Source: a virus (taxonomy: Duplodnaviria > Heunggongvirae > Uroviricota > Caudoviricetes). From it: 10,171 nucleotides of DNA. The translations under genes and the position numbers were made by a program. The notes below the pieces were generated by a model that saw only the letters and a program-made list of their open reading frames with translations, made no database searches and was not told where the DNA came from. Where the stretch lies: the IMG/VR virus record IMGVR_UViG_2541047122_000013, one strand, 5' to 3'. Below are positions 1-10,171 of the stretch, piece by piece; the first letter of the stretch is position 1; each line of letters starts with the position of its first letter.

Positions 1-98
1 TTGTGGGTGATCTTCAACTGGGATAGCTACCGTAGCCGTGTAACAGGTAAAGAGTATTAATCCCCGTTTCTGGCGGTATACTGCGACACAATTCCACC

Positions 99-845
99 TT
101 GAGTAATGAGGATGCGGAACTGACAGCGGCGCGTATTGCTGCGGCGCTGGGACTGTATATCCGTAAAGGTGACGGACAGGACTATGAAGATCCGGGGAGC
201 AAAGAGACCGAGCGGGAAGTCCATATCACCCCGGGTATTATTTATGACGATTTGCGCAAGGGCGAGGATATCGGCATGGTCAAATCTGACCGTCCCAATC
301 CCAACCTTGAAACTTTCCGCAACGGCCAGTTGCGTGCAGTGGCAGCAGGCAGTCGTCTGAGTTTTTCCAGTGCGGCGCGTAACTATAACGGCACCTACAG
401 CGCCCAGCGGCAGGAGTTGGTCGAGTCCACGGATGGTTACCTGATCCTGCAGGACTGTTTTATTGGCGCGGTAACCCGCCCGGTGTACCGGACATGGCTG
501 AATATGGTGGTTGCGGCAGGTCTGCTGAAAATTCCGGCGGATGTGGAGATGAAAACGCTATATAACGCGACGTATTCCGGTCCGGTGATGCCGTGGATCG
601 ACCCGGTTAAGGAAGCTGAAGCCTGGAGAATTCAGATCCGGGGTGGTGCAGCGACAGAATCTGACTGGGTGCGTGCTGGTGGGCGCAATCCGGATGAGGT
701 CAAACGTCGCCGCAAGGCTGAAATTGATGAAAACAGCAGACTGGGGCTGGTCTTTGATACTGACCCCGTCAACGACAAAGGAGGCAACAGTGCCGGAACT
801 GAACGACAGTATCAGCGCGACACCGAAAGCCAGCATGAAGAATAA
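99..845 (+). CDS. Portal protein, lambda gpB family, C-terminal ~250 residues only (reading frame closed upstream; truncated or frameshifted)
   Basis: Translation (…RPNPNLETFRNGQLRAVAAGSRLSFSSAARNYNGTYSAQ…) resembles the C-terminal third of lambda portal gpB as I recall it (…LLRYIAAGLGVSYEQLSRNY…YS…). It sits directly upstream of the head protease gene, as portals do. The same frame has stop codons at 24-26 (TAG), 33-35 (TAG) and 48-50 (TAA), and the first start-like codon is TTG at 99 with no Shine-Dalgarno, so the ~280 N-terminal residues expected for a portal are not contiguous. The start coordinate is therefore nominal. Confidence 0.7.
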   Translation: MSNEDAELTAARIAAALGLYIRKGDGQDYEDPGSKETEREVHITPGIIYDDLRKGEDIGMVKSDRPNPNLETFRNGQLRAVAAGSRLSFSSAARNYNGTYSAQRQELVESTDGYLILQDCFIGAVTRPVYRTWLNMVVAAGLLKIPADVEMKTLYNATYSGPVMPWIDPVKEAEAWRIQIRGGAATESDWVRAGGRNPDEVKRRRKAEIDENSRLGLVFDTDPVNDKGGNSAGTERQYQRDTESQHEE

Positions 846-2817
846 ATCCTGGTTCAGGATGCAGGCTGGGGGGCCGGGTGACGCGGATATTTATATTTAT
901 GACGAGATTGGTTTCTGGGGAGTTACCGCGAAGCAGTTTGTCAGCGAACTGAATGCACTGGGTGATATCACCCACATTAATCTCCATATCAATTCACCGG
1001 GTGGCGATGTCTTTGAAGGCATCGCCATTTTTAATGCCCTGAAAAATCAGGGGGCGACCATTACCGTGTATGTGGATGGCGTTGCCGCCTCGATGGCATC
1101 TGTGATTGCGATGGCCGGTGATACGGTCATTATGCCGGAAAATGCCTTCATGATGATCCATAAGCCATGGGGATTCAGTGGCGGGGATGCTGAGGATATG
1201 CGCAGTTATGCCGATTTGCTGGATAAAGTCGAATCGGTACTGTTGCCAGCCTATGCGCAGAAAACCGGAAAAACCACCGATGAAATTGCCGCCATGCTGG
1301 CGGATGAAACCTGGATGTCCGGTGCCGAATGTCTGGCACACGGATTTGCTGACCAGGTGACACCCGCTGTTGAGGCAATGGCATGTATTCAGTCAAAACG
1401 TACAGAGGAATTTAAAAAGATGCCGGAATCCATTCGAAACATGATTACTCCGCCACGCAACAGTGCTCCACGCGTACAGGATGATGGACCTGCAGCCTCC
1501 CGGACGCCAGTGCAGGCAGCAGCACCTGTGGTGGATGAAAACAGTATCCGTGCGCAGGTACTGGCAGAGCAAAAAGCGCGTGTAAACGGTATTAATGATC
1601 TGTTTGCCATGTTTGGCGGGCGTTATCAGACGCTGCAGGCTCAGTGTCTTGCCGATCCTGAATGTTCGCTGGAGCAGGCCCGCGAAAAGCTGTTGAACGA
1701 GATGGGGCGCGAGTCCACGCCATCTAATAAAAATACCCCGGCTCATATTTATGCCGGAAACGGTAATTTTGTGGGGGATGGGATCCGCCAGGCGCTGATG
1801 GCGCGTGCCGGATTTGAAAAAACCGAACGTGATAATGTCTACAACGGGATGACCCTGCGTGAATATGCCCGTATGTCACTGACTGAACGGGGTATTGGGG
1901 TTTCCAGTTATAACCCGATGCAGATGGTCGGTGCGGCGTTCACACACAGTACGTCTGACTTCGGTAATATTCTGCTGGATGTTGCGAACAAAGCCATTCT
2001 GCAGGGCTGGGAAGATGCCCCTGAAACCTATGAACAGTGGACGCGGAAAGGTCAGTTGTCTGATTTTAAAATTGCCCATCGTGTGGGTATGGGGGGCTTC
2101 AGTGCTCTGCGTCAGGTGCGTGAAGGGGCGGAATATAAATACGTCACCACCGGAGATAAACAGGCCACTATTGCACTGGCGACCTATGGCGAGCTGTTCA
2201 GTATCACCCGTCAGGCCATTATCAATGATGATCTGAATATGCTGACCGATGTCCCGATGAAACTGGGCCGTGCGGCGAAATCCACTATTGCCGATCTGGT
2301 TTATGCCATTCTGACGTCTAACCCGAAAATCTCCACAGATAATGTAAGTCTGTTCGATAAAGCGAAACATGCAAACGTACTGGAGAGCGCTGCAATGGAC
2401 GTGGCATCGCTGGATAAAGCCCGCCAGTTGATGCGCGTTCAGAAAGAGGGGGAGCGTCATCTGAATATTCGTCCTGCGTTCGTACTGGTACCGACGGCGA
2501 TGGAGTCTGTTGCTAACCAGGTCATTCGCTCCTCAAGTGTCAAGGGGGCTGACATTAACGCCGGTATTATTAACCCGGTGAAAGATTTTGCGACCGTTAT
2601 TGCAGAGCCTCGTCTTGATGATAACAGCCAGACCACCTTCTACCTGGCTGCGTCAAAAGGCTCCGATACGATTGAAGTGGCTTATCTCAACGGTGTGGAT
2701 ACGCCATATATTGATCAGATGGAGGGCTTCAGTGTGGATGGCGTGACAACGAAAGTGCGTATTGACGCCGGTGTCGCGCCAGTTGATCACCGCGGTCTGG
2801 TGAAATGTACGGCGTAA
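790..2817 (+). CDS. Prohead protease (ClpP/S14-like) fused to major capsid protein (protease-scaffold-capsid single ORF)
   Basis: One uninterrupted frame. The N-terminal part has ClpP-type motifs: IYIYDEIG, INSPGGDVFEGIAIFNAL, an active-site-like GVAASMASVIAMAGD and MMIHKPWG. A Pro/Ala/Gln-rich linker follows, then ~400 residues with major-capsid character (…GVSSYNPMQMVGAAF…TFYLAASKGSDTIEVAYLNG…). Start chosen at GTG 790 because of the strong SD AAAGGAGG at 777-784 with 5-nt spacing. An in-frame ATG at 835 (MKNKSWF…) is an alternative start. The frame is also open back to 643 inside the portal gene. Stop is TAA 2815-2817. Confidence 0.8.
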   Translation: MPELNDSISATPKASMKNKSWFRMQAGGPGDADIYIYDEIGFWGVTAKQFVSELNALGDITHINLHINSPGGDVFEGIAIFNALKNQGATITVYVDGVAASMASVIAMAGDTVIMPENAFMMIHKPWGFSGGDAEDMRSYADLLDKVESVLLPAYAQKTGKTTDEIAAMLADETWMSGAECLAHGFADQVTPAVEAMACIQSKRTEEFKKMPESIRNMITPPRNSAPRVQDDGPAASRTPVQAAAPVVDENSIRAQVLAEQKARVNGINDLFAMFGGRYQTLQAQCLADPECSLEQAREKLLNEMGRESTPSNKNTPAHIYAGNGNFVGDGIRQALMARAGFEKTERDNVYNGMTLREYARMSLTERGIGVSSYNPMQMVGAAFTHSTSDFGNILLDVANKAILQGWEDAPETYEQWTRKGQLSDFKIAHRVGMGGFSALRQVREGAEYKYVTTGDKQATIALATYGELFSITRQAIINDDLNMLTDVPMKLGRAAKSTIADLVYAILTSNPKISTDNVSLFDKAKHANVLESAAMDVASLDKARQLMRVQKEGERHLNIRPAFVLVPTAMESVANQVIRSSSVKGADINAGIINPVKDFATVIAEPRLDDNSQTTFYLAASKGSDTIEVAYLNGVDTPYIDQMEGFSVDGVTTKVRIDAGVAPVDHRGLVKCTA

Positions 2818-2840
2818 ACGTCGCAGACAACAACTCTGAT

Positions 2841-2860
2841 GGCCCGTAAGGGCTTTTTTT
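2841..2860 (+). terminator. Putative intrinsic terminator after the capsid gene
   Basis: Short GC stem GCCC (2842-2845) / GGGC (2850-2853) with loop GTAA, followed immediately by a run of 7 T (2854-2860), 24 nt after the capsid stop. The stem is only 4-5 bp, so it is probably weak or partial. Confidence 0.4.
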
Positions 2861-2871
2861 GTACCTGAAAT

Positions 2872-2890
2872 CAGCCCCTGAACGGGGCTG
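2872..2890 (+). other. Stem-loop immediately upstream of the SD of the next gene (possible mRNA processing or stability element)
   Basis: CAGCCCC (2872-2878) pairs with GGGGCTG (2884-2890), loop TGAAC. There is no T-run after it. It abuts the SD GGAGACAG (2893-2900). Confidence 0.3.
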
Positions 2891-2903
2891 TGCGGAGACA
2901 GTT

Positions 2904-3227
2904 ATGGCAAAGAATTTTGTAGAAGAAGGAAAAACGGTGGCGATTGTTGCCAGTGCAGCCATCAGCAGCGGAGATCTGGTGCAGGTGGGCGATGTTTTTG
3001 CGGTGGCGCTGACCGATATTCCACAGGGTGAAACAGGCGACGGCATGACCGAAGGTGTGTTTATGCTGCCTAAGCTGAAAACGGATGACATGAAAACGGG
3101 TAAGAAGGTTTATCTGAAGTCAGGAAAAGTTCAGCTGACTAACAGCGGCTCTGATCCGCTGGTCGGGGTTGTCTGGGCAGATGCCGGAACCAGTGCAGAA
3201 GAAGTGCCGGTAAAACTCAATGTCTGA
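2904..3227 (+). CDS. DUF2190-family small phage head protein (putative capsid decoration/cement-like protein)
   Basis: 107 aa, MAKNFVEEGKTVAIVASAAISSGDLVQVGDVFAVALTDIPQGETGDGMTEGVFMLPKLK…VGVVWADAGTSAEEVPVKLNV. The Gly-rich beta-type pattern and position just after the major capsid gene are typical of DUF2190 proteins. SD GGAGACAG lies 3 nt upstream of ATG 2904. The TTG at 2859 in the ORF track sits inside the terminator T-run and is unlikely to be the start. Confidence 0.65.
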   Translation: MAKNFVEEGKTVAIVASAAISSGDLVQVGDVFAVALTDIPQGETGDGMTEGVFMLPKLKTDDMKTGKKVYLKSGKVQLTNSGSDPLVGVVWADAGTSAEEVPVKLNV

Positions 3228-3495
3228 TCCCTTTTCCCGGCTGGCAGCGCGTATGGATGCTATCACGGTCAGAAAGATGGGAAAGACAGCCTCGATTAAT
3301 GATGTCGATATGACTGTGATCCCGGGAGAAACACTGGCAGAGCTGAATGCTCTGTCCGGACCTGCGGTCTCTCTGGTGGTGTTTTCTTCGGGATACCGCC
3401 CACGGCGCGGGGATCGCGTTGTTTATGACGGACAACAATGGACGGTCACACGGCATGAACGCTTTAACGGTAAGCCAATGATCTTTATTGAGTAA
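3220..3495 (+). CDS. Head-tail joining protein, gpFII-like
   Basis: 91 aa. The N-terminal region (FSRLAARMDAITVRKMGKTASI) and an RRGD motif resemble lambda gpFII as I recall it. Position immediately before the Z homolog matches the lambda order FII-Z. The start overlaps the upstream stop (ATGTCTGA). Confidence 0.6.
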   Translation: MSDPFSRLAARMDAITVRKMGKTASINDVDMTVIPGETLAELNALSGPAVSLVVFSSGYRPRRGDRVVYDGQQWTVTRHERFNGKPMIFIE

Positions 3496-3506
3496 AGAGG
3501 TGTGGG

Positions 3507-4085
3507 ATGAAGGGGCTTGAGAATGCCATCCGCAATCTGAACAGCCTTGATACCCGTATGGTGCCACAGGCCAGCGCATGGGCGATAAACCGTGTGGCAC
3601 AGAAAGCGGGCTCGGTTGCCACCCGGCAGGTTGCCGGGAATACCGTTGCGGGAGATAACCAGGTGAAAGGGATCCCCCTGAAACTGGTTCGTCAGCGTGT
3701 CCGGGTGTTTAAAGCCAGTCCGTCAGGAAAAATGACGGCCAGGATCCGCGTTAACCGGGGCAATCTGCCCGCCATTAAGCTGGGGACAGCCCGGGTCAGA
3801 CTGGCCCAGCGTGGTGGAAAACTGCAGTACCGTGGCAGTGTGCTGAAGGTGGGTAAATATCTTTTCCGGGATGCGTTTATTCAGCAACTGGCGAATGGTC
3901 GCTGGCATGTGATGCGGCGTATTGATGGCAAAAATCGTTACCCCATTGATGTGGTGAAAATCCCGCTGTCCGGACCGCTGACACAGGCATTTGAAGATGC
4001 CCGCGACCGCATCATTGCTGCGGAAATGCCGAAACAGCTGGGGTATGCACTGAAACAACAACTGAGGTTATGGCTGACCCGATGA
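3507..4085 (+). CDS. Z: Minor tail protein Z (tail completion)
   Basis: 192 aa, the same length as lambda gpZ. Conserved blocks: KGLENAIRNL…AINRVAQKA…NGRWHVMRRIDGKNRYPIDVVKIPL…LGYALKQQLR. SD AAGAGGTG lies upstream of ATG 3507. Confidence 0.85.
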   Translation: MKGLENAIRNLNSLDTRMVPQASAWAINRVAQKAGSVATRQVAGNTVAGDNQVKGIPLKLVRQRVRVFKASPSGKMTARIRVNRGNLPAIKLGTARVRLAQRGGKLQYRGSVLKVGKYLFRDAFIQQLANGRWHVMRRIDGKNRYPIDVVKIPLSGPLTQAFEDARDRIIAAEMPKQLGYALKQQLRLWLTR

Positions 4086-4483
4086 ACCGACATACACAAA
4101 TCCGCCAGGTCGTACTGGCACGCCTTCGGGAACAGTGTGGAGACAGCGCCACGTTTTTTGACGGGCTTCCGGCATTTGTTGATGCGCAGGAACTGCCTGC
4201 CGTGGCGGTGTGGCTGAGTGATGCTCAGTACACCGGAAAAATGACGGATGAAGATGACTGGCAGGCTGTTCTGCATATTGCTGTCTTCATCCGGGCACAG
4301 GCACCGGATTCAGAGCTGGATATGTGGATGGAGAGCACCATTTTCCCGGCCCTGAATGATGTATCGGCACTTTCCGGACTCATCGACACCCTGATCCCAC
4401 TCGGTTTTAACTATCAACGTGATAATGAGATGGCCACCTGGGCGATGGCGGAAATCACGTACCAGATCACGTACACGAATTAA
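4082..4483 (+). CDS. U: Tail terminator protein U
   Basis: Translation …ATFFDGLPAFVDAQELPAVAVWLSDAQYTG…PDSELDMWMEST…ITYQITY matches lambda gpU blocks (ATFFDGRPA, PAVAVYL, PDSELDAWMES). Start taken at ATG 4082, which overlaps the Z stop as ATGA. An in-frame ATG at 4070 is an alternative start that would add four residues. Confidence 0.8.
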   Translation: MNRHTQIRQVVLARLREQCGDSATFFDGLPAFVDAQELPAVAVWLSDAQYTGKMTDEDDWQAVLHIAVFIRAQAPDSELDMWMESTIFPALNDVSALSGLIDTLIPLGFNYQRDNEMATWAMAEITYQITYTN

Positions 4484-4493
4484 GGAGGTGGTA

Positions 4494-5237
4494 ATGACCA
4501 CGCCAAATCCACTGGCAAAGACGAAAGGTGCGGGGACGACGTTCTGGATGTATACCGGCAACGGCGATGCGTTTGCGAACCCTTTGTCGGACACTGACTG
4601 GCTGCGTCTTGCGATGGTGAAGGATCTGCAACCTGGCGAAATGACCGCTGATGCAGAAGATGACACTTATCTCGATGATGAAGATGCAGACTGGAAAACG
4701 ACAACCCAGGGGCAGAAATCCGTTGGTGATACTTCGGCGACGCTGGCCTGGCGTCCGGGTGACAGCGGGCAGAAAAAACTGGTTCAGTTGTTCGACTCCG
4801 GTGAAGTCTGCGCGTTTCGTATCAAATATCCCAACGGCACTGTTGATGTTTTCCGCGGCTGGCTGAGCTCACTGGGTAAAACCATTGCCTCAAAAGACGT
4901 GATGACCCGCACAGTGAAAATCAGCGGTGTGGGGCGTCCATATCTGGCAGAGGAGGGCACTGAAACTGTGGGCGTTACCGGGCTGACGGTGGCACCGGCA
5001 TCCGCCAGTGTCAATGTGGGAGCAACCACCACGCTGACCTTTACAGTAAAACCTGACGGAGCCAGTGACAAAGCGATCAGTGTGCATTCGACAGATCCAC
5101 AGACAGCCACTGTGACCCTGAACGGACTTGTGGCCACGGTGAAAGGCGTGAAGCAGGGCAGCGTCAGCATTGTGGGCATGACCGCTGACGGGAATTTTGT
5201 GGCTGTGGCTGCGGTGACTGTCAGCGCTGCAGGTTAA
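4494..5237 (+). CDS. V: Major tail tube protein V with C-terminal Ig-like (Big_2-type) domain
   Basis: 247 aa. It is collinear with lambda gpV: NPLAKTKGAGTTFWMYTGNGDAFANPLSDTDW…YLDDEDADW…YPNGTVDVFRGWLSSLGK…RTVKISGVGRP. The C-terminal ~90 residues are Thr/Val/Ser-rich beta-type (TVAPASASVNVGATTTLTF…). Strong SD AGGAGGTG precedes ATG 4494. The ORF-track start at 4419 is an upstream extension that overlaps U. Confidence 0.9.
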   Translation: MTTPNPLAKTKGAGTTFWMYTGNGDAFANPLSDTDWLRLAMVKDLQPGEMTADAEDDTYLDDEDADWKTTTQGQKSVGDTSATLAWRPGDSGQKKLVQLFDSGEVCAFRIKYPNGTVDVFRGWLSSLGKTIASKDVMTRTVKISGVGRPYLAEEGTETVGVTGLTVAPASASVNVGATTTLTFTVKPDGASDKAISVHSTDPQTATVTLNGLVATVKGVKQGSVSIVGMTADGNFVAVAAVTVSAAG

Positions 5238-5257
5238 CAGGACGATACTCATCATTT

Positions 5258-5281
5258 GCCCCGGTTATCCGGGGCTTTTTT
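5258..5281 (+). terminator. Intrinsic-terminator-like hairpin between V and G
   Basis: Perfect 7-bp GC stem GCCCCGG (5258-5264) / CCGGGGC (5269-5275) with tetraloop TTAT, followed directly by T6 (5276-5281). It lies 21 nt after the V stop. Confidence 0.55.
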
Positions 5282-5294
5282 GCAGGTGGAGAAC

Positions 5295-5684
5295 ATGATG
5301 TTTCTGAAACAGGGCACGTTTAATTATGAAAAGCAGTCCGTGGTGCTCAGTGAGCTGTCCGGGCTGCAGAGAATTGAATATCTGGCGTTTGTTCAGCAGC
5401 GAACGGCAAAGTTTGATGCCGAAGAGGGAGAACTGCCGGAGGCTGAACGACAGATTGCTTTTCTGCGGATGGGGATGGATATCAATGCCTGGCTGGTTTC
5501 CCGCTCACTGTGGAATGCGGAACAGTCTCAGGATGTTGAGACGCTTTGCGCATCCGTTATTACAACATGGTCGTATGATGCCCTGGGAGCGGGGGCGGAG
5601 ATGGTTCTGTCGCTGAGCGGTATGGGAGCCATTGAGAATGCCGGGGATTTGGAGCATGAGGTGCTGACGCCGGAAAAGTCCTGA
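5295..5684 (+). CDS. G: Tail assembly chaperone G
   Basis: 129 aa (MMFLKQGTFNYEKQSVVLSELSGLQRIEYLAF…). It resembles lambda gpG (MFLK…LSELSALQRIEHLA…LSGM). SD GGTGGAG precedes ATG 5295. ATG 5298 is an equally plausible start. The TTG 5256 of the ORF track lies inside the terminator hairpin. Confidence 0.8.
   Translation: MMFLKQGTFNYEKQSVVLSELSGLQRIEYLAFVQQRTAKFDAEEGELPEAERQIAFLRMGMDINAWLVSRSLWNAEQSQDVETLCASVITTWSYDALGAGAEMVLSLSGMGAIENAGDLEHEVLTPEKS
5672..5678 (+). other. Candidate -1 ribosomal slip site for G-T fusion (GGAAAAG)
   Basis: The T frame is the -1 frame relative to G and is open only from 5660 (TGA at 5657-5659). G stops at 5682-5684. A G-to-T shift must therefore occur within 5660-5684, and the only slippery-looking sequence there is G GAA AAG. 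Confidence 0.45.
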
Positions 5685-5692
5685 CGCGGGAA

Positions 5693-6022
5693 ATGCAGTT
5701 TGTCATGCGGCTTGCCCGGGAGTTCCGGCGGGCAGACTGGCGGCGGATGCTGTCGGAAATGTCGGCCACTGAGCTTGGTGAGTGGGGCGATTATTTCCGG
5801 ATGCAGAGCTTCAGTGATGTGTGGATGGATGCGCAGTTTGCCTCGCTGAAGGCATTGATCGTGAGAATGGTGTCCGGTAGCAGTGATGCTGCGGTGGCTG
5901 ATTTCAGCCTTTTACCGGAAGAGAACGGGATACCGGAGCGAACGGACGAAGAACTGATGCATCTTGGGGAAGGTATTTCCGGAGGTGTGCGTTATGGACC
6001 AGATAGCCAACCTGGTCATTGA
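5693..6022 (+). CDS. T: Tail assembly protein T segment, expected to be expressed as a G-T fusion by programmed -1 frameshift
   Basis: This ORF is in the -1 frame relative to G, lies immediately downstream, and has no SD of its own. The arrangement matches the conserved G/GT pair upstream of the tape measure gene. Coordinates are those of the ATG-defined ORF; the T reading frame itself opens at 5660. Confidence 0.7.
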   Translation: MQFVMRLAREFRRADWRRMLSEMSATELGEWGDYFRMQSFSDVWMDAQFASLKALIVRMVSGSSDAAVADFSLLPEENGIPERTDEELMHLGEGISGGVRYGPDSQPGH

Positions 6023-9000
6023 TTTGGGGATTGATGCGGCAGAGTTTAAAAATGAAATTCCCCGTATCAAAAACCTTCTGAATGGTGCAGCCAGCGATGC
6101 AGAACGGTCTTCTGCCCGTATGCAGCGTTTTATGGAGCGTCAGACTCAGGCCGCCCGGCAGACAATGCAGGCGGCTTCTTCGGCTGCAACAGCCGCATCC
6201 GTCCATGCGCAGACGGTGGAGAAGAGCGCACAGGCTCATGAACGCATGGCCCGCGAGGTGGAGCAAACCCGCCAGCGTATGGAGGCACTGAGCCAGAAAA
6301 TGCGCGAGGAACAGGCGCAGGCCATGGCTCTGGCGGAGGCTCAGGATAAAGCGGCTGCTGCGTTTTATCGTCAGATTGACAGTGTGAAACAGGCCGGTGC
6401 GGGGCTGCAGGAATTACAGCGTATTCAGCAACAGATCCGACAGGCCAGAAACAGTGGCGGGATTGGTCAGCAGGATTATCTGGCGCTGATTTCTGAGGTT
6501 ACGGCGAAAACCCGTGTTCTTACACAGGCTGAGGAAGAGGCTACCCGACAGAAAGTGGCGTTTATCCGTCAGCTTAAAGAGCAGGCAACCCGCCAGAATC
6601 TTTCTTCTTCTGAGTTGCTTCGTGCTAAGGCTGCCCAGCTGGGGGTAAGCAGTGCTGCAGAAGTGTATATCCGCAAAATGGAGCAGGCAGGAAAAGCCAC
6701 GCATTCGCTGGGTCTGAAAAGTGCAGCAGCCCGTCAGGAGATAGGCGTTCTGATAGGTGAACTGGCCCGCGGCAATTTAGGTGCGCTGAGGGGATCCGGA
6801 ATAACGCTGGCTAACCGTGCCGGGTGGATAGACACACTGATGTCACCGAAAGGCATGATGCCAGGAGCGGTTATTGGCGGTATTGCCGCGGCTGTCTATG
6901 GTCTGGGTAAAGCCTGGTATGACGGTCAGAAGGAGGGGGAAGAATTTAACCGCCAGCTGTCGCTGACGGGGCATTATGCCGGAGTCACTGCCGGGCAGCT
7001 GTGGACGCTCAGTCGTGCTATTTCCGGGAATGGTATCACGCAACATGCTGCAGCCGGTGCGCTGGCTCAGGTGGTGGGGAGTGGTGCATTTCGTGGAAAC
7101 GATATCGGTATGGTGGCGAGAGCTGCCGCACAGATGGAGCGATCGGTTGGCCAGTCGGTCAGCGATACCATAAATCAGTTTAAGCGGCTGAAGGATGATC
7201 CTGTAAATGCCGCGAAGGCTCTGGACAATGAGCTGCATTTTCTTACTGCCACTCAGCTTGAGCAGATACGCGTCCTTGGGGAGCAGGGGCGGTCCAGTGA
7301 TGCTGCACGGATAGCCATGTCTGCACTGGCAGAGGAAACCGGTCGGCGTACTGCGGATATTGATAATAACCTCAATGCGCTTGGCAGTACGCTGAAGTAT
7401 CTGTCTGATTTGTGGAGTCGTTTCTGGGATGCGGCCATGAATATTGGTCGTGAAGACTCGCTGGATGAACAGATTGCCGCTTTACAGGAGAAAGTGTCGC
7501 GGGCGAAAAGACTCCCCTGGACGGCATCATCTTCTCAGGTTGAATACGATCAGCAGCGTCTTAACGATCTTCAGGAGAAAAAACGCCAGAAGGATTTGCA
7601 GGATGCAAAAGAGCAGGCAGAGCGGAATTATCAGGAGCAACAGAAACGCCGTAATGCTGAAAATGCTGCACTGAACCGGATGAATGAAACGGAAGCAGCA
7701 CGACATCAGCGTGAAATAGCGCGTATTAATGCCATGCAGTACGCCGATCAGGCTGTCAGGGATGCGGCGATACAACGTGAAAATGAACGTTACGAGAAAG
7801 CCCTGGCATCCGGTAAGAAAAAAACACGCGAAACCCGTAATGATGAGGCCACCCGGTTATTGCTGCAGTACAGTCAGCAACAGGCACAGGTGGAAGGACA
7901 GATTGCTGCTGCCAGACAGTCAGCAGGCATTGCCACGGAAAGGATGACAGAAGCGCGTAAACAGCTTCTGGCTCTGCAGCAGCGCATCAGCGACCTGGAC
8001 GGGAAAAAACTGACGGCAGATGAAAAGAGTGTGCTGGCCCGTAAAGATGAACTGATTCAGGCACTGACGCTGCTGGATGTAAAACAGCAGGAGCTTCAGA
8101 AACAGACGGCACTCAACGAGCTGAAGAAAAAAACAATTCAGCTGACCAGTCAACTGGCTGAAGAAGAGCGCGCTCAGCGTCAGCAACATGACCTGGATAT
8201 CGCCACGGTGGGTATGGGTGATCAGCAGCGACAGCGATATCAGGTACAACTGAGTCTTCGCCAGAAATACCAGCAACAGCTGGAGCAGTTGAGGCGGGAT
8301 AGTGAGCAGAAAGGGACATATAACACGGATGACTACAGAAAGGCCGAGCAGGCGCTGACGGAGAGCCTGAACCGACAACTGAATGAGAATCGCCGTTACT
8401 GGCAACAGCTTGAAGTTGTACAGGGTAACTGGAAAAACGGAGTCCTGCGTGCATTTCAGGATTTTACCGTGGATGCAGATAATACGGCAGAAACAGCAGA
8501 ACAGGTGTTCTCGTCAGCCTTCAGCAACATGGGAAATGGCCTGGCAACTTTTGTCACTACCGGCAAACTCAATTTCAAATCCTTCACCTCTTCTGTGCTG
8601 TCAGATATGGCGAAAATCCTGGCGCAGGCAACCATGATGAAATCGATAAAAGGGATTGGCAGTGTACTGGGATTTGATCTCAGCAGCCTTTCCCTGAATG
8701 CCAATGGGGGGATTTATCAGTCTGCTGATTTGAGTCGTTACAGTGGCACGGTGGTTAACCGTCCGACGTTTTTTGCTTTTGCAAAAGGCGCGGGTGTGAT
8801 GGGGGAAGCGGGACCTGAAGCCATTCTGCCATTGCGTCGTGGTGCTGACGGTAAGCTGGGGGTTGTGGCGGATATTGGGGGTTCAGGTATGGCGATGTTT
8901 TCCCCGCAGTACAACATCGAGATCAATAACGATGGCACGAACGGGCAGATAGGTCCGGCTGCCCTGAAGGCGGTTTATGACCTCGGGAAAAAAGCGGCAG

Positions 9001-9059
9001 CGGACTTTATGCAACAGCAGGCCCGTGATGGTGGTCGGTTAAGTGGAGCATATCGGTAA
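5994..9059 (+). CDS. H: Tail tape measure protein H
   Basis: 1021 aa. Long Ala/Gln/Glu/Arg-rich coiled-coil-like stretches. A hydrophobic Gly-rich segment (GMMPGAVIGGIAAAVYGLG). The C-terminal block GGIYQSADLSRYSGTVVNRPTFFAFAKGAGVMGEAGPEAILPLRRGADGKLGV is the lambda-family tape-measure C-terminal signature. SD GGAGGTG (5981-5987) precedes ATG 5994, which overlaps the 3' end of T. Confidence 0.9.
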   Translation: MDQIANLVIDLGIDAAEFKNEIPRIKNLLNGAASDAERSSARMQRFMERQTQAARQTMQAASSAATAASVHAQTVEKSAQAHERMAREVEQTRQRMEALSQKMREEQAQAMALAEAQDKAAAAFYRQIDSVKQAGAGLQELQRIQQQIRQARNSGGIGQQDYLALISEVTAKTRVLTQAEEEATRQKVAFIRQLKEQATRQNLSSSELLRAKAAQLGVSSAAEVYIRKMEQAGKATHSLGLKSAAARQEIGVLIGELARGNLGALRGSGITLANRAGWIDTLMSPKGMMPGAVIGGIAAAVYGLGKAWYDGQKEGEEFNRQLSLTGHYAGVTAGQLWTLSRAISGNGITQHAAAGALAQVVGSGAFRGNDIGMVARAAAQMERSVGQSVSDTINQFKRLKDDPVNAAKALDNELHFLTATQLEQIRVLGEQGRSSDAARIAMSALAEETGRRTADIDNNLNALGSTLKYLSDLWSRFWDAAMNIGREDSLDEQIAALQEKVSRAKRLPWTASSSQVEYDQQRLNDLQEKKRQKDLQDAKEQAERNYQEQQKRRNAENAALNRMNETEAARHQREIARINAMQYADQAVRDAAIQRENERYEKALASGKKKTRETRNDEATRLLLQYSQQQAQVEGQIAAARQSAGIATERMTEARKQLLALQQRISDLDGKKLTADEKSVLARKDELIQALTLLDVKQQELQKQTALNELKKKTIQLTSQLAEEERAQRQQHDLDIATVGMGDQQRQRYQVQLSLRQKYQQQLEQLRRDSEQKGTYNTDDYRKAEQALTESLNRQLNENRRYWQQLEVVQGNWKNGVLRAFQDFTVDADNTAETAEQVFSSAFSNMGNGLATFVTTGKLNFKSFTSSVLSDMAKILAQATMMKSIKGIGSVLGFDLSSLSLNANGGIYQSADLSRYSGTVVNRPTFFAFAKGAGVMGEAGPEAILPLRRGADGKLGVVADIGGSGMAMFSPQYNIEINNDGTNGQIGPAALKAVYDLGKKAAADFMQQQARDGGRLSGAYR

Positions 9060-9388
9060 TGGAGACGTTTCACTGGAAAGTGCGCCCGGATATGAATGTG
9101 GTATCAGAGCCGAAAGTGGTGACAGTGAAGCTGGGCGATGGTTATGAACAGCGTCGTGCGGCGGGACTGAATAACCAGTTGTCGACTTACAGCGTGACGA
9201 TACGTGTTCGTAAATGTGAACACCCATCTTTAAAAGCCTTTCTGGAACGGCACGGTGGCGTCCGTGCATTTCAGTGGACGCCACCTTATGACTGGAAACC
9301 GATCAGGGTGGTTTGTCGTAAATGGTCGGCAAGCGTGGGGGCGCTGTGGGTAACCATAACGGCAGATTTTGAACAGGTCGTGGCATAG
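9059..9388 (+). CDS. M: Minor tail protein M
   Basis: 109 aa, the same length as lambda gpM, with matching blocks: METFHWKVRP…GDGYEQR…AGLN…TYSVT…HGG…WTPPY…W…ADFEQVV. The start overlaps the H stop (TAATG). Confidence 0.9.
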   Translation: METFHWKVRPDMNVVSEPKVVTVKLGDGYEQRRAAGLNNQLSTYSVTIRVRKCEHPSLKAFLERHGGVRAFQWTPPYDWKPIRVVCRKWSASVGALWVTITADFEQVVA

Positions 9389-9397
9389 GAGGCTCTG

Positions 9398-10095
9398 ATG
9401 CAGGATATTCCACAGGAAACACATCATGAGACGACACGCCTCACTCAGTCAGCCCAGGCGGTGCTCTGGGAAATCGATCTGACAGAGGTCGGTGGTGAAC
9501 GTTATTTTTTCTGTAATGAGCAGAACGAAAAAGGTGAGCCGGTTACCTGGCAGGGGCGGCAGTATCAGGCATACCCCATTCAGGGGACGGGATTTGAACT
9601 GAACGGCAAGGGCAGTTCTGCCCGTCCGACACTGACGGTTTCTAACCTGCACGGCATGGTCACGGGGATGGCGGAAGACCTGCAGAGTCTGGTCGGCGGA
9701 ACGGTGGTCCGGCGTAAGGTTTACGCCCGTTTTCTGGATGCGGTGAACTTCGTCAACGGAAACAGCGACGCCGATCCGGAGCAGGAGGTGATCAGCCGCT
9801 GGCGCATTGAGCAGTGCAGCGAACTGAGCGCGGTGAGTGCCTCTTTTGTACTGTCCACGCCGACGGAAACGGACGGCGCTGTTTTTCCGGGCGTATCATG
9901 CTGGCCAACACCTGCACCTGGACCTATCGCGGCGATGAGTGCGGTTATCACGGTCCGGCGGTCGCGGATGAATATGACCAGCCAACGTCCGATATCACGA
10001 AGGATAAATGCAGCAAATGCCTGAGCGGTTGTAAGTTCCGCAATAACGTCGGCAACTTTGGCGGCTTCCTTTCCATTAACAAACTTTCGCAGTAA
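9398..10095 (+). pseudogene. L: Minor tail protein L (tail tip assembly, Cys-rich C-terminal domain), disrupted by a 1-nt frame break near 9887-9892
   Basis: ORF 9398..10024 encodes an N-terminal part that is nearly identical to lambda gpL as I recall it (MQDI…LWEIDLTEVGGERYFFCNEQNEKGEPVTWQGRQYQ…) up to …DGAVFPG. The conserved C-terminus GRIMLANTCTWTYRGDECGY…KCSKCLSGCKFRNN…LSINKLSQ is in the -1 frame (ORF 9814..10095). Joining the two at CCGGG/CG gives 164 + 68 = 232 aa, the length of intact gpL. SD AGGAGG precedes ATG 9398. Confidence 0.8.
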
Positions 10096-10100
10096 ATTCC

Positions 10101-10171
10101 ATGACACAGACAGAATCAGCGATTCTGGCGCACGCCCGGCGATGTGCGCCAGCGGAGTCGTGCGGCTTCGT
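10101..10171 (+). CDS. K: Tail tip assembly protein K, N-terminal 23 codons (continues beyond the window)
   Basis: ATG 10101 lies 5 nt after the L stop. The translation MTQTESAILAHARRCAPAESCGF matches my recollection of the lambda gpK N-terminus. The frame is open to the window edge. Confidence 0.7.
   Translation, partial: MTQTESAILAHARRCAPAESCGF

What the first reader, a model, noticed from the sequence alone, without database searches (positions are those of the whole stretch)
9398..10095. The gpL homolog is split by a single-nucleotide frame break in a short homopolymer context
The N-terminal 164 codons and the Cys-rich C-terminal 68 codons of an otherwise well-conserved gpL homolog lie in frames offset by -1. 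The junction is at TTTTTCCGGGCG (9882-9892), where one base appears to be missing relative to an intact CCG GGN CGT ATC reading. In lambda, gpL is needed for tail tip assembly, so a true frameshift would mean a defective tail and hence a cryptic or decaying prophage. The alternative is a homopolymer sequencing or assembly error. A programmed frameshift is not known for L.
Basis: partly seen in the sequence, partly recalled or inferred. Interest (0 to 1): 0.6.

Follow-up and report, generated by a model that had tools for sequence, protein, structure and literature searches.

The report
One-base gap in prophage tail gene L
A lambda-type tail-tip gene (L) in a short draft E. coli contig lacks one base and so reads in two frames; no other sequence searched has this gap, and it is most likely an ordinary sequencing or assembly error, or else a private inactivating mutation.

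Summary
The L gene at 9398-10095 is 698 nt, against 699 nt in its intact relatives. One base is missing between 9891 and 9892 (CCG GG- CGT versus CCG GGA CGT).

Putting an A back gives a 232-aa protein that aligns end to end with lambda tail tip protein L. As deposited, the gene encodes 164 native residues plus a 44-aa out-of-frame tail. All four Fe-S cysteines (173, 182, 205, 212) are lost.

The window is a whole 10,171-bp contig of a draft assembly (E. coli Bd5610_99). The gap was not found anywhere else:
- 5,426 complete E. coli genomes
- 90 phage records
- 120 IMG/VR loci
- JGI metagenome contigs and GTDB representative genomes

Programmed frameshifting is therefore not supported. The arrangement is not conserved, there is no slippery heptamer, and there is no downstream RNA structure.

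From 1373 onwards the contig matches O157:H7 prophage Sp3 except at three positions. The only two changes private to this contig both lie in its last 280 nt. The other contig end carries 105 nt of unrelated chromosomal DNA.

I favour a consensus error (about 0.6) over a real pseudogenising mutation (about 0.37). Only reads or Sanger sequencing can decide. It is ordinary either way.

The parts
9398..9889 (+). L gene, codons 1-164 (M1 to P164), in the native frame
   Evidence: Translation. Pfam PF05100 matches profile positions 1-137. Identical to O157 Sakai Sp3 gene ECs_0839.
9890..9892 (+). Frame break. The Gly165 codon has lost its third base: the window reads GG|C where relatives read GGA C or GGG C. 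The gap lies between 9891 and 9892.
   Evidence: Alignments. Codon tally across 120 IMG/VR loci.
9892..10095 (+). L gene, codons 166-232 plus stop, in the frame offset by -1. This is the iron-binding C-terminal domain with Cys173, 182, 205, 208 and 212.
   Evidence: Translation. Pfam profile positions 131-206. Cys positions. Lambda ligands Cys173/182/205/212 are reported in PMC10721106.
9893..10024 (+). Out-of-frame tail (VSCWPTPAPG...NAANA, 43 codons plus stop) of the 208-aa product as deposited (ERC72972.1)
9882..9891 (+). T5 run (9882-9886) followed by CCGGG. This is the only conceivable slip site and it is not a canonical X XXY YYZ heptamer in the L frame (GTT TTT CCG GGC).
   Evidence: Read directly from the sequence. 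Downstream RNA fold has z = +1.17.
9059..9388 (+). Upstream neighbour: M homolog (109 aa), intact
   Evidence: PF05939. Synteny with Sp3 and ESBL 15.
10102..10171 (+). Downstream neighbour: start of the K homolog (C40 peptidase), cut by the contig end. A private T at 10098 lies in the L-K spacer.
1..105 (+). Core chromosomal DNA (3' end of dnaC, start of yjjA) joined to the inside of a phage portal gene. This bears on the quality of the contig.

Best explanation
The L gene of an O157:H7 Sp3-like lambdoid prophage is recorded here with one base missing: the third base of the Gly165 codon, most likely A. The gap is private to this one draft contig, AVRL01000023.1 of E. coli Bd5610_99. Most likely it is an error in the consensus sequence near the end of a short, repeat-bounded contig, and the gene in the real strain is an intact 699-nt L. 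Nothing is being 'done' by the break. As deposited, translation would simply run into the wrong frame after Gly165 and stop 43 codons later.
For: **The gap and what restoring it gives (shown).** There is one gap column against intact L genes. A restored base gives a full-length 232-aa gpL.

**The window is a whole draft contig (shown).** It is the complete 10,171-bp contig of assembly GCA_000462365.2, and the exact 208-aa product occurs on that contig only.

**The gap was found nowhere else (shown).**
- No complete E. coli genome matched an 80-nt or a 50-nt query spanning the junction without a gap. There were 7,238 L-like places in 3,929 genomes.
- None of 90 phage records.
- None of 120 IMG/VR loci.
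- No exact junction match in IMG/VR, GTDB representative genomes or JGI metagenome contigs.

**Private changes cluster at the contig end (shown).** From 1373 to 10171 the contig differs from Sakai Sp3 at only three positions. The C at 5489 is shared with strain ESBL 15. The gap after 9891 and the T at 10098 were seen in no other sequence searched. Both lie in the last 280 nt of the contig. The chance of that for two changes placed at random is about 0.001, but this is a post hoc figure.

**Other oddities in the contig (shown).**
- The other end carries 105 nt of dnaC/yjjA chromosome fused to the middle of a portal gene at a 4-nt microhomology. The contig does not extend further into that unique DNA, which is the pattern of a chimeric read tip.
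- The contig switches between two different O157 prophages within 61 shared nt, a mosaic seen in no complete genome.

**Inferred.** Contig ends at repeat boundaries have low or mixed coverage, so errors gather there.
Against: - The gap is the only frame-breaking indel in 10 kb. Longer homopolymers in the same gene, such as the T6 at 9506-9511, are read correctly. There is therefore no sign of a general indel-error problem.
- The missing base is probably a lone A, which is not the classic homopolymer miscount.
- Being unique is equally expected of a recent real mutation.
- Sp3 in O157 Sakai already has a portal pseudogene, so L may be under relaxed selection.
- The sequencing platform and the reads are not available to me.
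- The end-clustering argument is post hoc.
Confidence: 0.6

Rival explanations
1. The deletion is a real, recent, strain-private mutation that turns L into a pseudogene. The product keeps the N-terminal hub domain but loses the whole iron-binding C-terminal domain. This prophage then cannot build a tail tip on its own and is a decaying element, unless a co-resident lambdoid prophage supplies L.
For: - The deposited sequence says so, and the rest of the 10 kb has no other frame-breaking indel.
- All four Fe-S ligands (Cys173/182/205/212) lie beyond the break.
- The nearest relative, Sakai Sp3, is already defective, with an annotated portal pseudogene.
- Broken L genes are common. Five of 105 complete IMG/VR L loci are disrupted, three of them by 1-nt deletions. 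Nine other frameshifted L products share the 90% identity cluster, with breaks at other sites.
- If the junction at 105/106 is real, the prophage also lacks its terminase and the N-terminus of its portal.
Against: - All Sp3 copies listed from complete O157:H7 genomes have an intact 699-nt L.
- The gap sits 280 nt from a contig end, next to the only other private change.
- The contig shows other signs of assembly trouble.
Confidence: 0.37
2. The break is bypassed during expression. Either a -1 ribosomal slip occurs (tRNA-Phe on the T5 run, giving gpL P164S, or tRNA-Gly from GGC to GGG, giving wild-type gpL), or RNA polymerase slips on the T5 run. Some full-length L would then be made, as programmed or leaky recoding.
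For: - The downstream frame is the -1 frame.
- A U5 run lies 5 nt upstream of the break, so P-site tRNA-Phe could re-pair perfectly one base back (sequence).
Against: - The two-frame arrangement was found in no other L gene searched. A programmed signal would be conserved, as the G/GT arrangement in this same window is.
- There is no X XXY YYZ heptamer in the L frame.
- The 80 nt downstream fold no better than shuffled sequence: z = +1.17, with 178 of 200 shuffles folding at least as well.
- From established knowledge, T5 is too short for efficient transcriptional slippage.
- The flanking sequence is the same as in intact genes, so nothing has evolved around the break.
Confidence: 0.02
3. L works here as two separate polypeptides: the N-terminal hub domain (residues 1-165 plus the junk tail), and the C-terminal iron-binding domain re-initiated at ATG 9898 (MLANTC..., 65 aa).
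For: An in-frame ATG lies at 9898-9900, just after the break. [quoted passage not shown]
Against: - There is no recognisable Shine-Dalgarno sequence before 9898.
- No split L gene turned up among the relatives examined; all 100 IMG/VR loci that read through are single 232-aa ORFs.
- The 43 junk residues would remain attached to the N-terminal piece.
Confidence: 0.01

Closest known systems
Bacteriophage lambda tail tip protein L (gpL; PDB 8iyk chain L; Pfam PF05100 Phage_tail_L)
   Same: With one base restored the protein is 232 aa and aligns 1-232 with lambda gpL (E = 3.8e-148). It scores 332 bits on PF05100. It has Cys at 173, 182, 205 and 212, which are the [4Fe-4S] ligands in lambda. It sits between M and K homologs.
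   Different: As deposited, the reading frame breaks at codon 165. The encoded product is 208 aa and lacks the whole iron-binding domain.
L gene of prophage Sp3 of E. coli O157:H7 Sakai (ECs_0839, NP_308866.1), with the same gene in EDL933 and other O157:H7 genomes
   Same: Every one of the 698 bases is identical, and the flanking 8.7 kb is identical except at two positions.
   Different: Sp3 has the A of GGA (699 nt, intact). Sp3 also has C rather than T in the L-K spacer, and a different, degraded portal region.
Other frameshifted L genes in public assemblies, for example EFX10900.1 (O157:H7 G5101) and ENC79833.1 (E. coli P0299917.7)
   Same: Each has an apparent one-base loss that throws the C-terminus into the same wrong frame. 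Six of the nine share the same stop and the same 208-aa length.
   Different: Their breaks are at other sites, most often the T4 run at 9844-9847 and others a few codons later. They are independent events or errors, not a shared allele.
The programmed -1 frameshift of the tail assembly chaperones G/GT in lambda-like phages
   Same: Both involve two frames offset by -1 within a tail gene cluster. The same window carries the G/T pair (5298-5684 and 5693-6022).
   Different: Relatives are annotated with the same separate G and T genes. The L break has no counterpart in any relative and no slippery heptamer.

Membership tests
Lambda gpL / Phage_tail_L (PF05100) | Sequence match to the family profile above the curated cut-off | tested here: met
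   The restored protein scores 332.4 bits and the two pieces score 217.3 and 99.8 bits, against a cut-off of 25. Match to lambda gpL has E = 3.8e-148.
Lambda gpL / Phage_tail_L (PF05100) | Four conserved Cys that bind the [4Fe-4S] cluster, in one polypeptide with the hub domain | tested here: not met
   The cysteines are encoded at 173, 182, 205 and 212 of the restored sequence (PMC10721106). They lie in the other frame, so the 208-aa product as deposited has none of them.
Lambda gpL / Phage_tail_L (PF05100) | Position in the tail gene order H-M-L-K-I-J | tested here: met
   The order is tape measure 5994-9059, M 9059-9388, L 9398-10095, then the start of K at 10102.
Programmed -1 ribosomal frameshift | The two-frame arrangement is conserved among homologs | tested here: not met
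   It was found in 0 of 5,426 complete E. coli genomes, 0 of 90 phage records and 0 of 120 IMG/VR loci. There were 0 exact junction matches in three contig collections.
Programmed -1 ribosomal frameshift | Slippery heptamer X XXY YYZ at the shift site | tested here: not met
   The L frame reads GCT GTT TTT CCG GGC GTA. No heptamer of that form spans the break.
Programmed -1 ribosomal frameshift | Stimulatory RNA structure downstream | tested here: not met
   The segment 9893-9972 folds at -23.2 kcal/mol against a shuffle mean of -27.1, z = +1.17.
Sequencing or assembly artefact | Seen in one assembly only, and absent from independent sequences of the same element | tested here: met
   The exact product is on one contig only. 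Every listed complete O157:H7 genome whose Sp3 L gene matches the window has the extra base.
Sequencing or assembly artefact | Not supported by the raw reads | not testable with these tools
Prophage pseudogene (real decay) | Other inactivating lesions in the same element | tested here: inconclusive
   All other genes in the window are full length. The portal is cut at 105/106 by a junction that may itself be an artefact.

The most novel reading that the evidence does not exclude
The break is real, and the cell still makes some working L. This would happen either by a low-level -1 slip of tRNA-Phe on the U5 run just before the break, or by supply of L from a co-resident lambdoid prophage. The element would then still contribute to particle formation or gene transfer despite a 'dead' tail-tip gene.
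Probability: 0.03. Interest if true: 0.35.

Novelty: already known. Interest (0 to 1): 0.07.

Why it matters
It matters little. A frameshifted tail gene in a draft prophage contig is routine: about 3-5% of L loci in IMG/VR are broken in some way. If the gap is real, it only says that one Sp3-like prophage in one strain cannot make its own tail tip. If it is an error, the deposited protein ERC72972.1 (208 aa) is wrong and should be a 232-aa gpL. The practical lesson is that single-base frame breaks near the ends of short draft contigs should not be read as biology without checking the reads.

Tried and rejected
1. **Programmed or leaky frameshift.** Rejected. The arrangement is not conserved, there is no slippery heptamer, and there is no downstream structure.

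2. **Collapsed-repeat consensus error.** The idea was that two co-resident L copies differing as GGA and GGG at this codon produced the gap. The second lambdoid prophage of O157 that I could examine (TR01, 1.77 Mb) has a much more divergent L, reading CCTGGTCGC here, so it could not be collapsed with this one. This has no support, but it cannot be tested in strain Bd5610_99 itself.

3. **Same allele elsewhere.** The exact protein look-up found one contig only. The members of its 90% cluster break at other sites. Junction pattern scans of viral, genome and metagenome contigs found nothing.

4. **Positive control for the pattern scans.** It was replaced by a flanking 30-mer from the window, which found 120 or more loci.

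5. **Literature on the strain or accession.** Nothing relevant was found. One search was a malformed query.

6. **The single record at 99% or better.** It was not listed, but it covers less than 80% of the query. The 50-nt junction query then showed no record at 99% or better.

Full report
**1. What is in the sequence**

ORF 9398-10024 encodes 208 aa. It reads as a gpL-type protein up to ...TDGAVFPG and then turns into unrelated sequence (VSCWPTPAPG...). ORF 9814-10095 lies in the frame offset by -1. From RIMLANTCTW onwards it reads as the Cys-rich end of gpL. Pfam PF05100 (Phage_tail_L) matches the first ORF on profile positions 1-137 and the second on positions 131-206.

Aligning the 698 nt with L genes from phage records gives a single gap column in the window, between 9891 and 9892. 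The window reads CCGGG-CGTATC where the intact genes read CCGGGACGTATC or CCGGGACGAATC. The top hits in the phage collection and in complete E. coli genomes span 699 nt against the window's 698. With an A put back, the gene encodes 232 aa that align 1-232 with lambda tail tip protein L (PDB 8iyk_L, E = 3.8e-148).

**2. Which base is missing**

The L gene is identical at all 698 positions to the L gene of prophage Sp3 of E. coli O157:H7 (Sakai ECs_0839 and many other O157:H7 genomes), which reads GGA at codon 165. The simplest reading is loss of a lone A that follows a G3 run.

Across 120 L loci from IMG/VR, the codon is GGA in 84, GGG in 34, GGT in 1 and GGC in 1. It is always in frame. A G4-to-G3 contraction is possible but less parsimonious. 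'Homopolymer context' is therefore only loosely true.

**3. Where the window comes from**

The exact 208-aa product is recorded on a single contig. That contig is the window itself: AVRL01000023.1, 10,171 bp, from draft assembly GCA_000462365.2. The protein record ERC72972.1 names the strain as E. coli Bd5610_99. I found no paper on the strain or the accession.

**4. Is the break shared with anything?**

It is not. The searches were as follows.
- An 80-nt query across the junction hit 7,238 L-like places in 3,929 of 5,426 complete E. coli genomes. Every full-length match needed a gap.
- A 50-nt junction query gave no record at 99% identity or better.
- The same 80-nt query against 50,697 phage records matched 90 records, none without the gap.
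- An exact junction pattern found nothing in IMG/VR, in GTDB representative genomes or in JGI metagenome contigs.
- As a control, a flanking 30-mer from the window found at least 120 IMG/VR loci. All 120 have the extra base.

The nine other members of the product's 90% identity cluster are also frameshifted L proteins. Their breaks lie elsewhere, mostly in the T4 run at 9844-9847 and others a few codons later. They are independent events. Six of the nine share the 208-aa length only because the wrong frame ends at the same stop.

**5. Consequence if the break is real**

[quoted passage not shown] 2013). The restored protein has Cys at exactly these positions. All of them lie after the break. 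The deposited product would keep the N-terminal hub part and lose the entire iron-binding domain.

That gpL is required for tail-tip assembly is established knowledge about lambda. I did not test it here.

**6. Programmed frameshift?**

Three tests fail.
- The arrangement is not conserved in any relative (section 4).
- The L frame reads GCT GTT TTT CCG GGC GTA, with no X XXY YYZ heptamer.
- The 80 nt downstream fold no better than shuffled sequence, z = +1.17.

A basal -1 slip of tRNA-Phe on the U5 run is conceivable. It would give gpL with P164S. Nothing suggests it is more than noise. In contrast, the window also holds the usual G/T pair in frames offset by -1 (5298-5684 and 5693-6022), and the relatives are annotated with the same pair.

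**7. Real mutation or error?**

This cannot be settled without reads, but the context leans towards error.

- (a) From 1373 to the end, the contig differs from Sakai Sp3 at only three positions: C5489, the gap, and T10098.
  - C5489 is shared with strain ESBL 15.
  - The gap and T10098 were seen nowhere else. The best complete genomes differ from the window at both sites (99.6% over 9700-10171). The L-K spacer TAAATTCC is absent from the 48 IMG/VR loci where the spacer could be extracted.
  - Both private changes lie in the last 280 nt of the contig. For two changes placed at random in 8.7 kb, the chance is about 0.001. This is a post hoc figure.
- (b) The other contig end is odd. Bases 1-105 are the core chromosomal dnaC/yjjA region, 99% identical in essentially every E. 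coli genome. They are joined to the middle of a portal gene at a 4-nt microhomology. The contig stops only 105 nt into that unique DNA. This looks like a chimeric read at a contig tip.
- (c) Bases 101-1433 match a second O157:H7 prophage (TR01, 1.76 Mb) with one mismatch. The contig then switches to Sp3 within 61 shared nt. No complete genome has this combination.

Against the error reading:
- This is the only frame-breaking indel in 10 kb. The other alignment gaps against relatives are compensated pairs in the divergent first 1.1 kb, an in-frame 6-nt difference, or one extra base in Sakai's own degraded portal region.
- Longer homopolymers nearby are read correctly.
- The lost base is probably not inside a homopolymer.
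- Sp3 is already defective in Sakai, where the portal is an annotated pseudogene, so a real lesion in L would be unsurprising.

Broken L genes are also not rare. Five of 105 complete IMG/VR L loci are disrupted, three of them by 1-nt deletions.

One specific artefact idea was that two co-resident L copies differing as GGA and GGG were collapsed into one consensus. It has no support. The second O157 prophage I could inspect has a much more divergent L.

**8. Verdict**

I put about 0.6 on a consensus error, 0.37 on a real private pseudogenising deletion, and about 0.03 on any form of recoding or split-gene function. Either way this is an ordinary feature: a known gene (lambda gpL family, O157 Sp3 allele) with a one-base gap in one draft contig. 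It has little interest beyond flagging the deposited 208-aa protein as probably wrong.

Noticed in passing
window 1-114: The first 105 nt are core E. coli chromosome (3' end of dnaC and start of yjjA, 99% identical in essentially all complete genomes). They are fused to the interior of a phage portal gene at a 4-nt microhomology (ATGA, 106-109). This is either a chimeric read at the contig tip or a real deletion junction that removes the terminase and the portal N-terminus.
   Followed up: partly
window 101-1500: Bases 101-1433 match a different O157:H7 prophage (TR01, about 1.76 Mb) with one mismatch. Bases 1373-10171 match Sp3 (about 0.91 Mb) with three differences. The switch lies within 61 shared nt inside the protease/capsid fusion gene. 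No complete E. coli genome has this mosaic, so it is either a recombinant prophage or an assembly cross-over.
   Followed up: partly
window 10098: The T in the L-K spacer (TAAATTCC) is private to this contig. All O157 Sp3 copies and 34 of 48 IMG/VR loci read TAAATCCC. It lies 4 nt before the K start codon and 74 nt from the contig end.
   Followed up: partly
window 5298-6022: The tail assembly chaperone pair G (5298-5684) and T (5693-6022) lie in frames offset by -1, with GGAAAAG just before the G stop. This is the usual lambda-like G/GT arrangement. The slip site itself was not tested.
   Followed up: no
window 9844-9847 (T4 run) and the few codons after it: Nine other public assemblies (for example O157:H7 G5101 and E. 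coli P0299917.7) have L genes frameshifted at these other sites into the same wrong frame. Six of them give the same 208-aa length. This region of L repeatedly appears broken in draft data.
   Followed up: partly
L030, L071, L120 (IMG/VR loci); L003 (CP025902.1, 'phage 500465-3'): These are further L genes with 1-nt deletions. L030 has 11 deletions (a low-quality sequence), L071 has 2, L120 has 1 in an A5 run, and 500465-3 has 1 at alignment column 273. Together they give a base rate of roughly 3-5% broken L genes in prophage-derived records.
   Followed up: partly
L004 (Sakai Sp3) 1867-3448: In O157:H7 Sakai the Sp3 portal region is degraded, with an annotated portal pseudogene and a 'hypothetical protein' that aligns with portal sequence. 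The closest relative of this element is therefore already defective.
   Followed up: no
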